Of a stretch of 57,992 bases of DNA, positions 14,860 through 31,940 are shown in pieces. The DNA is from a virus. Taxonomy: Duplodnaviria; Caudoviricetes. Numbering within the stretch: the first letter of the stretch is position 1; every line of letters starts with the position of its first letter. The stretch lies in IMG/VR virus record IMGVR_UViG_3300031754_000006, positions 1 through 57,992 of that record. One strand, given 5' to 3'. The translations under genes and the position numbers were made by a program. Under the pieces are notes generated by a model. That model was not told where the DNA came from. It made no database searches and saw only the letters and a list, made by a program, of their open reading frames with translations.

Positions 14860-14895
14860 GCCCCTTACACATGTGCAGTACCATATGTAAGGGGC
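14860..14895 (-). terminator. hairpin closing array 2
   Basis: GCCCCTTACA (14860-14869) / TGTAAGGGGC (14886-14895), followed by TTT on minus strand. Confidence 0.65.
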
Positions 14896-15298
14896 GCCTT
14901 GCTTTACTCGCCCTTGCACGTCCGCTCCGGGCCTTGCCTGCCTTGCCCATCCCCGCTTTACCACCCCTGACCTTGCCTGACCTCACCTGACCTTGCCTGC
15001 TGCGTTTAGCCTGTCCCTACCAAGCCAACCCAAGCCGGGCCAAGCCTGCTCTGCTACGCCTGTCCTTGCCCCTCCAGACCTTTCCTTACGCTGCCTGCCT
15101 TGCCTGCACTACCACGCCGATCCATGCCTAGCCGATCCGCGCCTTGCCTGCTCTGCCGTCCCGAGTTTGGCCGTTCCATTCTCGGCTCTGCCTGCATTGC
15201 CAGCCCTGTCCAAGCCTCTCCACTCACAGCCTCGCCTGCTTAGCCCAGCCTATCCGTACCTAACCGATCTCGACTTTGCCTGCCTTGCCCCACTGCTA
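14893..15298 (-). ncRNA. orphan GGN-NN pentamer array (candidate guide-RNA array 2)
   Basis: Delimiters (CCTGC on +) start at 15279, 15235, 15191, 15147, 15103, 15094, 15045, 14996, 14937; spacings 44,44,44,44,9,49,49,59, all 5n+4. Confidence 0.8.
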
Positions 15299-23661: not shown

Positions 23662-24369
23662 ATGGCATTCGCAGCTAAGCAAAAGGTCGAGATTACTCCC
23701 CCCAATCTCCAGCTAGTCAAGTTCCGGATCATCGGCACTAGTCCACTCGTCCAAAACAAGTTCAGCAGCCGCGCCCTGGAGGCCATGGCCGCCGATCAGC
23801 GCCTCGGCTCCGCCGCCGTGAAGCGCAAGAAGCGCGAGCCCAAGGACTTCGACCTGGCCGTCAAGGAGGCCACCCACTACGCCGATGCCGGCTGGTGCGG
23901 CCTCCCGGCCTCGGCCTTCCGCACGGGCCTCATCTCCACTTGCCGCCTCCTGGGTTTTCCGATGACTTTGGCCAAATTATCGGTATTTGTCGTCGCCGAT
24001 GGCTACGAGCGCGACAGATTCGGAGTGACGCCACTCGTCCGGATCACCAAGGGCAAGCCCGAGCGCACTGACTTTGCCGTGCGCAACGCCACGGGCGTAG
24101 CCGATATCCGCCCCCGCCCCATGTGGCCCGAAGGCTGGGAGGCGGTCATCTCCATTCGCTTCGACGCTGATCAGTTCACCGTGCAGGACGTGACCAACCT
24201 GCTATCCCGCATGGGCGAGCAGGTGGGGATCGGCGCGGGGCGGCACGACTCCAAGGACTCGGCCGGCATGGGCTGGGGCTGCTTCCGGATCGCCGATACC
24301 GTGGGCGGGGAGGCGCCTACCAAGAAGACCAGGGCGCCCAAGGAAGCAGTACAGGAGGAGGTTGGCTAA
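23662..24369 (+). CDS. stand-alone Cas7/RAMP-like RNA-binding protein (Vipr-like)
   Basis: N-terminal strand FRIIGTSPL, PASAFRTGL (RAMP P-x-S-x-x-K/R-G-like), C-terminal Gly-rich loop GIGAGR...GMGWGCF; no other cas genes. Confidence 0.75.
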   Translation: MAFAAKQKVEITPPNLQLVKFRIIGTSPLVQNKFSSRALEAMAADQRLGSAAVKRKKREPKDFDLAVKEATHYADAGWCGLPASAFRTGLISTCRLLGFPMTLAKLSVFVVADGYERDRFGVTPLVRITKGKPERTDFAVRNATGVADIRPRPMWPEGWEAVISIRFDADQFTVQDVTNLLSRMGEQVGIGAGRHDSKDSAGMGWGCFRIADTVGGEAPTKKTRAPKEAVQEEVG

Positions 24370-24843
24370 ATGCCAAGCGCAGCAGCCAAGCGGCTCAAGC
24401 GGGCCCGTACCCAGTCCATCCATGATGAGCTGGCCAACCTTTACCGATTGCATGGAGGTCTCAAGCCCGACGTGATCGTTGCCTGGGCTAAGAATAACCC
24501 TGCCAGCATCCTGCATTCTAAGTTTACGTGGGATGACAGTGAGGCTGCCAAGTCTTACCGCCTTTGGCAGGCGCGGCAGATTATCACAGAAGTAGAGGTG
24601 CAATACCCGGACGGCCATATACGGCGTGTGTATGTTTCGCCGATGGAGTCTCGCGGCACCCGAGGATATGCGACCTTGGTTGACGTTTTGTCCGATGAGG
24701 AGCGGCGAATTCAATATCTGCAACAGGCATATTCTGAGCTGGAGCGCACCGCCGCAAAATATCAGGACCTTGTGGAATTTGCTGGAGTCCGCAGGGCGAT
24801 TCGGGCTGCCGGCAGGAAACTGCCGAAGGCCAACAAGGAGTAG
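24370..24843 (+). CDS. accessory protein of the RAMP-array locus
   Basis: LHSKFTWDDSEAAKSYRLWQARQII motif; abuts the RAMP stop, and its own stop begins the array. Confidence 0.7.
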   Translation: MPSAAAKRLKRARTQSIHDELANLYRLHGGLKPDVIVAWAKNNPASILHSKFTWDDSEAAKSYRLWQARQIITEVEVQYPDGHIRRVYVSPMESRGTRGYATLVDVLSDEERRIQYLQQAYSELERTAAKYQDLVEFAGVRRAIRAAGRKLPKANKE

Positions 24844-25680
24844 CAGTAGGGGCAAGGTTGAGCTGCGCAGGCTAGGCGCGGAGAAGTCTGGTGAGGACGA
24901 GTGTGGAGCAGCGCGGTCGGGTTAGGCCAAGCAGGCGAGGAATGGACCGGTAACGAGAGGCAGAGATAAGCATGGCAGGTGGAGCAAGGACGTGTAAAGC
25001 CCGGGGCGGGCTGGCACGGCAGGCTGAACCTGGATAGGGTGGGCGAGGTGTGGTCGAGCCTGGACAAGCAGGCGTAGCATCGTACGGGTCGGCAAGGATA
25101 GGCGAGGCCAAGCAGGCCGGGAGTGGTAAGGCTCGCAAGGGCAGGGCTGCGCTGCGCGCGGAAGAGCAGGCAGAGCTAGGATTTGTACGGCATGGAGAGG
25201 CCCGGAGAAGCAAAGCAGGCAAGGAGCGGTAAGGGTCGGAGCCGTTAGGCAGAGCAGGCTTGGCTCGGGTCGGCTTGGGCAGGGTCGGAGCGGCTGGGCA
25301 ATTCAATGCAGGTTAAGCGTGGTGAAGCAGAGGGAGGCAAGGACTGGAACGGGATGGCTGAGCAATGCAGGCACGGACAGGTGAGGTATGGCACGGCACG
25401 GCACGCTAGGGCAAAGCAGGCACGGACAGGACCGGTAAGGTATGGAGCGGCACGTCGAGGCAAAGCAGGTCGAGCTTGGACCGGGATGGCGCGGTCAGGT
25501 GAAGCGTGGCGGGGCCAGGTCTGGCAGGCGTAGCAAGCAGTAAAGGGCAAGGCCAGGAGTGGACGCGATAGGCCAGGTGCAGCAGGCGCGGATCGGCAAA
25601 GCAGAGTGCGGGTCGGACGAGCACGGCAGGCGCGGATAGGTAAGGAAGAGGTCGGCGAGGGGAAGCACAGCAGGCTAAGG
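24841..25680 (+). ncRNA. GGN-NN pentamer array (candidate guide-RNA array 1)
   Basis: 17 GCAGG(C/T) delimiters from 24867 to 25670; spacings 64,44,44,49,44,54,49,39,54,59,49,49,59,58,44,44 (15/16 are 5n+4). Confidence 0.85.
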
Positions 25681-25683
25681 AAT

Positions 25684-25760
25684 CCGTCAGCGCAATTGTG
25701 CATTGACGGCCAGGGGAGTCCGTAAACGACGATATCGCCCCGTAGCGGACTCCCCGCTTT
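25684..25760 (+). terminator. double hairpin closing array 1
   Basis: CCGTCA/TGACGG (25684-25709) and GGGGAGTCCG/CGGACTCCCC (25713-25755), then GCTTT. Confidence 0.6.
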
Positions 25761-25775
25761 ACCAGGAAGAAACCG

Positions 25776-26048
25776 ATGGCAGATAAAAAGCTTACCCCCT
25801 TCGATATGTGCGAGTGCGGTTGGACGCGCGTCCAGCACTGCGCCAGGGCTCCGCATCGGTGTACGCACCCGGGATGCTATTGCGTGGCGTTCAAGCTCTC
25901 TTCTGAGCCTGAACTTGACCGGCTGGATGAAGCCATCCGCACCACAAAGGCCCTGGCGCGGGCGCGGTTCTTTCCTGGGCTCGGACTGCGCGCAGATAGT
26001 ATCGATTACTTCATCAAGTGCGGTATTGAGCCCCTGGAGGAAAGCTAG
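25776..26048 (+). CDS. Cys/His-rich mini-protein, paralogue 2
   Basis: FDMCECGWTRVQHCARAPHRCTHPGCYCVAF. Confidence 0.7.
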   Translation: MADKKLTPFDMCECGWTRVQHCARAPHRCTHPGCYCVAFKLSSEPELDRLDEAIRTTKALARARFFPGLGLRADSIDYFIKCGIEPLEES

Positions 26049-26050
26049 CC

Positions 26051-26305
26051 ATGGCCGAAAGCCCATTTGATATGTGTCTCTGTGGCTGGAGCAGGATCCA
26101 GCACTGCGCTACCCCTCCGCATCCCTGCACACATGAGCGCTGTTGGTGTAAGGCATTTTGCTTCGCCCCCAATCACCCCCCCAAAGTTTCGGCTATCAAG
26201 GATGAGATGGATATGGCAGGCGCCAGGTTTTTTGACAGGTTTGGGTTGTACAGCGCTCCAGACGCAAAAACGCTGATCGCGCAAGGATTTACGCCTAAAG
26301 ACTAA
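26051..26305 (+). CDS. Cys/His-rich mini-protein, paralogue 3
   Basis: FDMCLCGWSRIQHCATPPHPCTHERCWCKAF. Confidence 0.7.
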   Translation: MAESPFDMCLCGWSRIQHCATPPHPCTHERCWCKAFCFAPNHPPKVSAIKDEMDMAGARFFDRFGLYSAPDAKTLIAQGFTPKD

Positions 26306-26404
26306 TCAACTTGCCGCCCCTTTCCCAGGGGGGTGGCCCGGGTGGCAGGTTAATTCCTCCGGATGACGCCTGCTGCCCGGTTTTACCTACGGAGTAACCG
26401 AACG

Positions 26405-26674
26405 ATGAGCAAAGATCGCAAAGACACCGATGACCCGAGGGCATCCGATCTGTGCGCCGTGTGTCTGGGATCAGCCGACAATAACGGCGCCCCCAGGTGG
26501 CGTCACTGCGCCAAGCCTCCCCATAAGTGCAGCGTTTGTGACGTATGCCCAGGATTCCAGTACGGCGGCCGAGCACAGGCTATCCATCGCGCGCGGTGGG
26601 CCGAACACGTAGAGCATTACGTGGAGAAGGGCCATCCCCGCGAACAGGTCGAGTTGGCCATCAAAGGTGAATAA
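26405..26674 (+). CDS. Cys/His-rich mini-protein, divergent paralogue 4
   Basis: DLCAVC...RHCAKPPHKCSVCDVCPGF; ATG 26405 with GGAG. Confidence 0.6.
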   Translation: MSKDRKDTDDPRASDLCAVCLGSADNNGAPRWRHCAKPPHKCSVCDVCPGFQYGGRAQAIHRARWAEHVEHYVEKGHPREQVELAIKGE

Positions 26675-26870
26675 CATGCGCCTATCTGAGACCAAGCCGG
26701 AAGACGATCCCGGGCTGGCCATGCCAAAGGGGCAGGAGCCCCACAAAACGGACGTTTGTGAGTGTACCGGCTTTAGGGATGAGCACTGCCTAGAAAAACC
26801 ACATCCGTGTCCTTGTGGCTGTAAGGCATTTAGATTTAGATCGAGATGGATAACCTTTGAAGGTGAGTGA
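26667..26870 (+). CDS. Cys/His-rich mini-protein, paralogue 5
   Basis: DVCECTGFRDEHCLEKPHPCPCGCKAF. Confidence 0.6.
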   Translation: MNNMRLSETKPEDDPGLAMPKGQEPHKTDVCECTGFRDEHCLEKPHPCPCGCKAFRFRSRWITFEGE

Positions 26871-31826: not shown

Positions 31827-31901
31827 GACCCATGTAGCTCAACGGTAAAGCCCAGCCCGCCTTCAAGCTGGAGACTGCGGGTTCAAGTCCCGCCGTGGGC
31901 C
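31827..31901 (+). tRNA. aberrant tRNA-like element (10-nt anticodon loop, possibly Glu-TTC derived)
   Basis: acceptor ACCCATG/CGTGGGC, TAGCTCAA.GGTA D-arm, CCAGC/GCTGG stem, GCGGG-TTCAAGT-CCCGC T-arm; no encoded CCA. Confidence 0.6.
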
Positions 31902-31940
31902 CTTCACACGCAACACGCGGCGCATTTAAGGAGGCACCAA

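What the first reader, a model, noticed from the sequence alone, without database searches (positions are those of the whole stretch)
24730..24930. First full array unit decodes, in codon phase, to a variant of the system's own accessory gene
Seen: the unit at 24867 has NN = TA GC GA CT GA CG GT GC GC CG TA CA. Codon positions 1-2 of 24730-24765 (YSELERTAAKYQ) are TA TC GA CT GA CG AC GC GC AA TA CA, a 19/24 match. The guide would read YAELERVAARYQ, with conservative S>A, T>V, K>R changes. My rough estimate is ~0.02 such chance hits per 12-pentamer guide genome-wide, before correcting for ~24 units, but this hit lies ~100 nt from the array. Inference: the code is NN-x with the wobble base skipped, and this guide targets the homologous gene of a rival phage while self escapes through mismatches.
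Basis: partly seen in the sequence, partly recalled or inferred. Interest (0 to 1): 0.85.

Follow-up and report, generated by a model that had tools for sequence, protein, structure and literature searches.

The report
VIPR guide resembling its own accessory gene
This soil phage carries a recently described RNA-guided silencing system (VIPR), and the first guide in its array spells a near-copy of the system's own accessory gene, probably aimed at a sibling phage that has not been sampled.

Summary
The arithmetic is right. Unit 24867-24931 decodes to 12 dinucleotides that match codon positions 1-2 of 24730-24765 at 19 of 24. This is the only site in the 57,992-nt genome above 16/24.

The locus is a VIPR system, described in three 2026 bioRxiv preprints:
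- a Cas7-like Vipr protein (23662-24369);
- a vap accessory gene (24370-24843);
- a "staggered" array of NNNGG pentamers (24843-25674);
- a second array on the minus strand (14907-15283).

Whether the self-match exceeds chance depends on the search space:
- genome-wide, 1.4% of order-shuffled guides do as well, about 0.27 after correcting for 19 guides;
- if the unit-junction pentamer is dropped, this rises to 10%;
- restricted to vap, it falls to 4 of 40,000.

All five bases where the guide differs from self occur together in one vap homologue (L003/L027); the null for that is 8 of 243.

No homologue with the predicted peptide was found. The best of 102 unique DNA sites scores 18/24, and none of 128 family proteins fits. 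Exact-pattern scans of IMG/VR and GTDB genomes gave 0 hits. The best outside match (21/24) lies in an unrelated Ead/Ea22-like prophage gene.

Verdict: a known kind of system, with a plausible but unproven anti-VIPR guide.

The parts
23662..24369 (+). vipr: 235-aa RAMP (Cas7/Csm3-like) protein, the vrRNA-binding subunit
   Evidence: phrog_4652, no Pfam hit. 3,696 homologues found. AlphaFold model pLDDT 82.4. Foldseek against PDB: 76 chains at E<=0.001, led by ~200-aa chains of type III-A Csm complexes and a named Csm3, best E 1.8e-6. Invariant G-rich C-terminal loop G189..G206.
24370..24843 (+). vap: 157-aa accessory protein, function unknown
   Evidence: phrog_15946. At least 564 relatives in IMG/VR and 1,396 in the protein collection. 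Sits next to vipr in close relatives. Model pLDDT 85, mostly helical. No significant PDB fold match, best E 1.8. Atlas neighbours are all viral 'hypothetical protein' clusters.
24730..24765 (+). Near-cognate site in vap (YSELERTAAKYQ): 19/24 match to guide U1, with the skipped base at the wobble position
   Evidence: Lies at the end of predicted helix 110-130.
24843..24867 (+). Degenerate leading partial unit that overlaps the vap stop codon
24867..24931 (+). U1, the first full vrRNA unit: GCAGG plus 12 pentamers. Its last G is shared with the next unit.
24843..25674 (+). Array 1: about 16 staggered units of 44-64 nt, made of NNNGG/NNNAG pentamers and punctuated by GCAGG
   Evidence: 123 in-phase pentamers: position 5 is G in 100%, position 4 is G in 80% and A in 20%, and all 16 NN types occur. 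No run of >=6 pentamers elsewhere on the + strand outside the two arrays.
25684..25755 (+). Two-hairpin structured element closing array 1 (possible 3' tail or terminator; the role is inferred)
   Evidence: Fold -41.5 kcal/mol, z = -4.05, 0 of 200 shuffles fold as well. The consensus terminator scan did not flag it.
14907..15283 (-). Array 2: 8 further staggered units (V1-V8), remote from vipr/vap

Best explanation
The locus is a VIPR (Viral Interference Programmable Repeat) system of a soil phage. Vipr protomers are expected to coat each pentamer-repeat vrRNA. They hide the GG(N) bases and present the NN dinucleotides, which pair with double-stranded DNA while skipping every third base. In the published systems this blocks transcription.

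Unit U1 carries an NN string that reads as a vap-family sequence (YAELERVAARYQ) at the exact homologous site of the phage's own vap. The most likely reading is that U1 is an anti-VIPR guide aimed at the vap allele of a closely related competing phage. The phage's own vap would be spared by 5 mismatched bases in three codons (Ser/Thr/Lys instead of Ala/Val/Arg), which put it at 79% NN identity, just under the 80% level the preprints use to call targets.

Shown here: the VIPR identity of the locus (I put this near 0.95), the match, and its statistics.
Inferred: expression and processing of U1, that 5 mismatches prevent binding, and the existence of the rival allele. The confidence given applies to this anti-vap reading.
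For: VIPR identity:
- Cas7/Csm3-like fold of the 235-aa protein.
- Pentamer array with invariant G at position 5, G/A at position 4 and hypervariable NN.
- Units overlap by one nucleotide, as in the legend of fig. S18 of 10.64898/2026.04.26.720920.
- 111 of 127 loci with a vap homologue and >=1 kb of flank on both sides carry same-strand pentamer runs within 2 kb.
- Phage context: terminase, Mu Gam-like protein, HNH endonuclease, RusA.

U1 and vap:
- The 19/24 site is the unique best hit in the genome; the next best is 16/24.
- 4 of 40,000 shuffles reach 19/24 within vap, and 9 of 40,000 within vipr+vap.
- Among 242 unique guides from 86 loci, each tested against its own vap, U1 ranks first (0 of 400 shuffles).
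- All 5 bases at which U1 differs from self occur together in the homologue L003/L027 (RAEVHRVTARYR, 18/24). Only 8 of 243 possible base combinations are rescued by any of 102 unique homologous sites; with the first 41 sites it was 3 of 243.
- Val7 and Arg10 are rare in the family (3 and 6 of 129) but occur together in several members.
- The skipped base falls on the wobble position, as published.

Against: - Genome-wide, the match is not significant after correction: 1.4% per guide times 19 guides.
- It weakens to 17/22 with P = 0.10 if the junction pentamer is not part of the guide.
- No cognate target was found. There were 0 exact hits in IMG/VR and 0 in GTDB genome contigs. There were 0 IMG/VR hits even for the nine dinucleotides shared by guide and self.
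- The best of 137 non-self vap sites scores 18/24.
- None of 128 family proteins exceeds 7 of 12 predicted residue classes; self has 9.
- There is no general tendency for guides to resemble their own vap: 8 guides at P<=0.05 against 12.1 expected.
- Guides do not match other VIPR loci more than shuffled guides do: 25 versus 26 at >=0.80.
- The other 18 guides of this phage show nothing in the phage's own genome.
- U1 has a better match (21/24) in an unrelated gene.
- Restricting the search space to vap was chosen after the match had been seen.
Confidence: 0.45

Rival explanations
1. Coincidence. U1 targets something not yet sampled, or nothing. Its resemblance to vap is a chance match between two strings built from common Ala/Glu/Leu/Arg/Val codons of a helical segment.
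For: - The per-guide chance is 1.4% with shuffles and 1.5-2.1% with real coding pseudo-guides.
- About 19-24 guides were available.
- The chance is 10% per guide without the junction pentamer.
- No cognate vap was found.
- There is no class-wide signal.
- The same guide also hits an unrelated helical peptide at 21/24. That shows how easily such strings recur.
Against: - The hit lies in the 474-nt vap gene of the same system (4 of 40,000 shuffles).
- All five differences are rescued by one homologue (8 of 243).
- Taken together these are unlikely, although both tests were framed after the observation.
Confidence: 0.25
2. U1's real target is a gene of a different resident prophage. The example found is the Ead/Ea22-like gene of provirus G001 (L176 2266-2294, minus strand; IAELERVAARYR). 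The similarity to vap would then be incidental.
For: - This is the only exact IMG/VR hit of the 10-dinucleotide core. It scores 21/24 (87.5%) overall, in codon phase with the skip at wobble.
- It passes the >=80% criterion the preprints use to call natural targets.
- The ORF is Ead_Ea22, PF13935, E 2.9e-13.
- The provirus has a matching GC content, 60.3% versus 59.7%.
- Published VIPRs mainly hit resident prophages.
Against: - One exact hit is within chance. A codon-phase model gives about 1.1e-11 per base of GC-rich coding DNA, or 0.5 per 5e10 bases if everything were like that. The size of the collection in bases is not known to me.
- None of the other 18 guides converges on this provirus; the lowest P is 0.20.
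- G001 has no Vipr and no nucleotide similarity to the window.
- A host in common is unknown.
Confidence: 0.15
3. Autoregulation. U1 binds its own vap 3' end imperfectly and acts as a weak roadblock about 100 nt upstream of the array. This would damp read-through transcription from vipr-vap into the array.
For: - The site and the array lie on the same strand, 78-102 nt apart.
- No promoter-like site was found between them.
- Published VIPR complexes repress transcription when bound to either strand.
Against: - The preprint reports that perturbing NN pairing abolished silencing.
- It found no self hits >=80% in its sets.
- In 86 related loci, guides do not resemble their own vap more than shuffled guides do, so this is not a conserved design.
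Confidence: 0.08
4. Relic. U1 once matched this lineage's vap (or was copied from it), and guide or gene has since drifted. It no longer has a working target.
For: - U1 shares with self five residue states that are uncommon in the family, out of 129 members: Tyr1 in 7, Arg6 in 18, Ala8 in 2, Ala9 in 14, Gln12 in 20. U1 is therefore closest to this phage's own lineage.
- Several units of the array are visibly degenerate.
Against: - U1 itself is the best-formed unit of the array, with 13 consecutive in-phase pentamers.
- The five differences coincide with states seen together in a homologue rather than looking random.
- No mechanism for copying own genes into vrRNA arrays is known from the texts I read.
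Confidence: 0.07

Closest known systems
VIPR systems (Vipr + vap + vrRNA), as described for Escherichia phage SUSP1 and a Pseudomonas fulva prophage (type II): bioRxiv 10.64898/2026.04.26.720920 and 10.64898/2026.04.26.720927
   Same: - A small RAMP protein next to an accessory gene.
- Flanking arrays of pentamers with conserved GG and variable NN.
- Phage-borne.
- Decoding by a one-base skip that falls on the wobble position.
   Different: - tblastn of this Vipr and vap against the phage collection finds Mycobacterium phages, Gordonia phages and one cyanophage, but not SUSP1. It is therefore another clade; which of the seven types cannot be told without the closed supplements.
- Units are staggered with a 1-nt overlap and have no pseudoknot tail per unit.
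- The first pentamer base is C/T in only 57%, closer to the 'NNNGG' variant named in the methods.
- There is a second array 9 kb away.
vrRNAs that target relatives' VIPR modules (solo vrRNAs of SUSP1-family phages): bioRxiv 10.64898/2026.10.15.759431, section 8
   Same: A guide whose decoded sequence lies in a gene of the VIPR module, with a lower match to self than to the supposed rival. It is read as competition between related phages.
   Different: - There the targets are vipr and other vrRNAs, found at identity >=0.8 in real genomes, mostly from VIPR-null phages.
- Here the carrier has a full VIPR, the gene is vap, and no cognate rival sequence has been found.
Class 1 CRISPR-Cas backbones (Cas7/Csm3 filaments on crRNA)
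   Same: The RAMP fold, and a protein filament that periodically excludes guide bases from pairing.
   Different: - No CRISPR repeats, adaptation genes or large subunit.
- 5-nt period with 2 pairing bases instead of 6-nt with 5.
- The guide is a repeat scaffold rather than a spacer.

Membership tests
VIPR system | Vipr protein: small RAMP with RRM core and glycine-rich loop | tested here: met
   Model pLDDT 82.4, pTM 0.75. Foldseek against PDB: 76 chains at E<=0.001, top hits in type III-A Csm and type VII complexes, including a named Csm3 (5yjd_B), TM 0.38-0.56. Invariant G189 G193 R194 S197 G202 G204 G206. The thumb element was not examined separately.
VIPR system | vrRNA gene(s): tandem pentamers with conserved GG(Y) and hypervariable NN, 9-16 repeats per vrRNA | tested here: met
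   123 in-phase pentamers. Position 5 is G in 100% and position 4 is G in 80%. All 16 NN types occur. Units have 8-13 pentamers. Y at the first position is only 57%, so this is the looser NNNGG form.
VIPR system | vap accessory gene adjacent to vipr | tested here: met
   The vipr-vap order is kept in L049, L050 and L052-L055; no separate vap ORF was listed for L051, though tblastn finds a homologous stretch there. vap-family genes sit beside pentamer arrays in 111 of 127 loci. Which numbered vap (1-6) this is cannot be told.
VIPR system | Staggered array: successive vrRNAs overlap by 1 nt (fig. S18 legend) | tested here: met
   In-phase runs end on the first G of the next GCAGG at 24931, 25112, 25215 and 25626. 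Legend text read. The figure itself is not held.
VIPR system | vrRNAs are expressed, processed and bound by Vipr | not testable with these tools
   Only one DNA run holds the stretch, and no RNA holder is listed.
VIPR system | Guides match natural targets by the 1-nt skip rule at >=80% NN identity | tested here: inconclusive
   U1: 21/24 in L176. U13: 21/22 in L181. Each is a single exact-core hit, compatible with chance. There is no convergence of other guides.
Anti-VIPR guide (vrRNA aimed at a rival's VIPR module) | A cognate site at >=80% identity in a rival's vipr, vap or vrRNA | tested here: not met
   Best non-self vap site is 18/24, 75%. 0 exact hits. No family protein has the predicted peptide.
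Anti-VIPR guide (vrRNA aimed at a rival's VIPR module) | Self-match lower than the targeting threshold | tested here: met
   Self is 19/24 = 79.2%, against the 80% criterion of the preprints.

The most novel reading that the evidence does not exclude
Kin discrimination by recoding. The first vrRNA of this phage encodes the vap allele of its nearest competitors. The phage's own vap has been changed at exactly three codons, non-synonymously because the guide ignores wobble bases (Ala>Ser, Val>Thr, Arg>Lys). VIPR would then work as an allele-specific exclusion system among sibling phages, and would force protein-level divergence of its own accessory gene. A match sitting just under the published 80% cut-off would mark the self/non-self boundary of the system.
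Probability: 0.3. Interest if true: 0.6.

Novelty: new member of a known kind. Interest (0 to 1): 0.35.

Why it matters
VIPR is a months-old discovery. Its natural targets are known for two clades only. This window adds an uncultivated soil-phage member of a different clade, one that also includes Mycobacterium phages, Gordonia phages and a cyanophage. It has two staggered arrays and about 24 guides.

If U1 really is an anti-vap guide, three things would follow:
- VIPR-against-VIPR conflict extends beyond the SUSP1 family.
- vap, and not only vipr or vrRNAs, is a target.
- A natural example exists of how many mismatches separate self from target, a tolerance that none of the sections I read quantifies.

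If it is chance, it is a useful caution. Matches of 75-88% NN identity arise readily for guides built from common codons, so the 80% rule needs per-guide nulls.

Tried and rejected
Tools that gave nothing on the array or the proteins:
- Rfam at gathering thresholds found only a tRNA; nothing on the array.
- Tandem Repeats Finder saw only fragments of the array.
- Pfam gave nothing for vipr, vap or the neighbouring small ORFs.
- The PDB sequence search gave nothing for Vipr and only E = 0.2 HigB-2 hits for vap, which I disregard.
- The vap fold has no significant PDB match; the weak winged-helix-like rows at E 3-9 are not used.
- The Atlas gives only viral 'hypothetical protein' clusters.

First readings I considered and dropped once the VIPR preprints were found and the Cas7-like fold confirmed: TRAP- or CsrA-type protein sponge, G-quadruplex tract, TIGR-Tas array, coding region.

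Target searches that led nowhere:
- All-against-all of 158 guides versus 560 kb of related loci: no excess over shuffles (25 versus 26 at >=0.80).
- 242 guides versus their own vap: no excess.
- The other 18 guides versus the window, versus provirus G001 and versus L181: nothing.
- tblastn of the terminase against the phage collection: no match, so the host is unknown.
- Sequencing runs: one DNA run (coded X1, soil metagenome, probably the source) holds the stretch, and no RNA holder is listed.
- Contigs of that run laid at 80% likeness gave the source contig plus six short pieces of 28-40 nt with 3-7 differences, which I take as chance. No variant vap allele was seen.

Limits:
- I did not run shuffled-pattern controls on the public collections, so the chance rate of exact hits there rests on a model and on a collection size I do not know.
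- Supplements of the three preprints (data S3, figs S15-S18, type tables) are closed. They may already list this clade, its type, or vap-directed guides.

Full report
**What is in the sequence**

Positions 24843-25674 on the + strand are a purine-rich, non-coding tract with a strict 5-nt period.
- Parsed in phase, it holds 123 pentamers of the form N-NN-(G/A)-G. The last base is always G and the fourth is G in 80%. All 16 dinucleotides occur at the middle positions.
- The word GCAGG punctuates the tract every 44-64 nt. Each unit ends on the first G of the next GCAGG, so successive units overlap by one base.
- Unit 24867-24931 is the first complete one and the best formed, with 13 consecutive in-phase pentamers.
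- A second tract of eight such units lies on the minus strand at 14907-15283.
- Outside these two tracts the + strand has no run of six or more such pentamers.

**What it is**

Directly upstream lie two genes, 23662-24369 (235 aa, phrog_4652) and 24370-24843 (157 aa, phrog_15946). Neither has a Pfam family.

The 235-aa protein:
- It has thousands of relatives.
- It models with confidence: pLDDT 82.4, pTM 0.75.
- Its fold matches the ~200-aa backbone subunits of type III-A Csm complexes, including an entry named Csm3, and of type VII complexes. 76 PDB chains match at E <= 0.001, the best at 1.8e-6.
- It keeps an invariant glycine-rich C-terminal loop.

Homologues of the 157-aa protein sit beside same-strand pentamer runs in 111 of 127 fetched loci that have enough flank. 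In L049, L050 and L052-L055 the gene order vipr, accessory gene, array is the same as here; no separate vap ORF was listed for L051.

A literature search led to three 2026 bioRxiv preprints on VIPR systems.
- I read sections 4, 10, 20, 26 and 27, plus passages, of 10.64898/2026.04.26.720920.
- I read the outline and passages of 10.64898/2026.04.26.720927.
- I read the outline, sections 8, 17 and 26, and passages of 10.64898/2026.10.15.759431.

They describe the following:
- a phage-borne RAMP protein (Vipr), an accessory gene (vap), and vrRNAs of 9-16 YNNGG repeats;
- NN dinucleotides that pair with double-stranded DNA while one base, usually the codon wobble base, is skipped;
- 'staggered' arrays whose vrRNAs overlap by 1 nt.

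The window meets every feature of that description that sequence analysis can test. The rest of the window is phage: terminase, Mu Gam-like protein, HNH endonuclease, RusA, methyltransferases. The whole held genome is this 57,992-nt record.

This Vipr/vap pair is not the SUSP1 type. tblastn against the phage collection finds it in Mycobacterium phages, Gordonia phages and one cyanophage, always annotated as hypothetical. Which of the seven published types it belongs to I cannot say, because the supplements are closed.

**The observation**

- The site is in frame, so the skipped base is the wobble base.
- It is the only site in the genome above 16/24 on either strand.

**Is it more than chance?**

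Genome-wide:
- 286 of 20,000 order-shuffled guides reach 19/24.
- Real coding segments from an unrelated provirus, used as pseudo-guides, do so in 61 of 4,000. Those of similar codon make-up do so in 15 of 700.
- With 19 usable guides this is not significant.
- If the last pentamer, which belongs to the semi-conserved unit junction, is left out, the match is 17/22 and 306 of 3,000 shuffles equal it.

Restricted to the system's own genes:
- 4 of 40,000 shuffles (12 NN) or 27 of 40,000 (11 NN) reach the observed score within vap.
- Of 242 guides from 86 loci tested against their own vap, this one ranks first.
- The class as a whole shows no excess of such matches.

An independent line comes from the homologous site in other vap genes.
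- It was read from 137 other loci, giving 102 unique sequences.
- The best match is L003/L027 at 18/24.
- That homologue carries all five bases at which the guide differs from self. Only 8 of the 243 possible combinations at those five positions are present in any homologue.
- The guide's Val7 and Arg10 are rare in the family but travel together.
- The guide also shares with self five states that are uncommon in the family: Tyr1, Arg6, Ala8, Ala9 and Gln12.

I read this as moderately good evidence that U1's NN string is a real vap-lineage sequence close to, but not the same as, this phage's own. Both supporting tests were framed after the match had been seen.

**The search for the rival**

- The exact 24-base gapped pattern has 0 hits in IMG/VR and 0 in the GTDB genome contigs.
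- The nine dinucleotides common to guide and self have 0 hits in IMG/VR.
- No vap homologue in hand exceeds 18/24.
- None of 128 family proteins from the 5.8-billion-protein collection has more than 7 of the 12 predicted residue classes; self has 9.
- The nearest sampled vap is only 57% identical (L051, tblastn), so a sibling allele could be unsampled.

Two further exact-core scans gave one hit each.
- The 10-dinucleotide core of U1 has one exact IMG/VR hit. It lies in an Ead/Ea22-like gene (PF13935) of an unrelated 65-kb provirus, scores 21/24 overall, and is in wobble phase.
- The U13 core likewise has one hit, 21/22. It lies at the 3' end of an HTH-like ORF (my reading of its sequence; no family search was run), out of wobble phase.
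- A codon-phase model puts such single hits within chance.
- No other guide converges on either element.

**How it most likely works**

By analogy with the published systems:
- The array would be transcribed with vipr-vap; no promoter-like site lies between them.
- The transcript would be cut into overlapping units, each coated by Vipr protomers.
- U1 would silence a DNA site that spells its NN string with one-base gaps.
- The phage's own vap differs at five informative bases in three codons, which puts it at 79%, just under the level the preprints use to call targets.

I favour the reading that U1 is aimed at the vap allele of a close competitor and that self is spared by these non-synonymous differences (0.45). 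The rivals are:
- coincidence (0.25);
- another prophage gene as the true target (0.15);
- weak autoregulation of read-through into the array (0.08);
- a decayed relic (0.07).

**Novelty**

The system, its code, and guides aimed at rival VIPR modules are all in print. This is a new member from another clade, with an unproven but testable vap-directed guide.

Noticed in passing
window 14907-15283 (-): A second staggered pentamer array of eight units (44-58 nt). It lies about 9 kb from vipr/vap, on the opposite strand, with no vipr beside it. An inverted repeat (CCCCTTACA...TGTAAGGGG) follows at about 14862-14893. It may be an 'orphan' array served in trans by the one Vipr.
   Followed up: partly
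window 25776-26870 (+): Four tandem paralogous small ORFs directly after array 1 (25776-26048, 26051-26305, 26363-26674, 26667-26870). They share an invariant Cys/His pattern: C12 C14 H21 C22 P26 H27 C29 C34 C36 F39. The two that were tested have no Pfam or PHROG family. They look like zinc-binding mini-proteins of unknown role.
   Followed up: partly
window 25684-25755 (+): A two-hairpin element closes array 1: -41.5 kcal/mol, z = -4.05, 0 of 200 shuffles fold as well. It could be a shared 3' tail or a terminator. The simple terminator scan does not flag it.
   Followed up: partly
L181 5166-5194 (+): Guide U13 (window 25465-25524) has one exact 10-dinucleotide hit in IMG/VR, 21/22 overall. 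It lies at the 3' end of an HTH/excisionase-like ORF on the opposite strand (my reading of its sequence; no family search was run). The skipped base is not at the wobble position. This is compatible with chance.
   Followed up: partly
window 31828-31902 (+): A tRNA gene (Rfam 40.7 bits) whose anticodon ARAGORN cannot assign: 'tRNA-???', anticodon given as (tc).
   Followed up: no
Public phage records, e.g. NC_031262.1 32909-33822, MW534375.1 10406-11578, BK059895.1 30975-32104: Adjacent homologues of this Vipr and vap occur in 25-27 Mycobacterium phage records, 5 Gordonia phage records and Cyanophage Cy-LDV1. All are annotated 'hypothetical protein'. I did not check them for pentamer arrays.
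   Followed up: no
L003 2490-2850 and 3600-3890: In some relatives the pentamer arrays flank vipr on both sides and lie upstream of vap (53 of 127 loci have an upstream run, 83 a downstream run). Array position relative to the genes is therefore fluid in this clade.
   Followed up: partly
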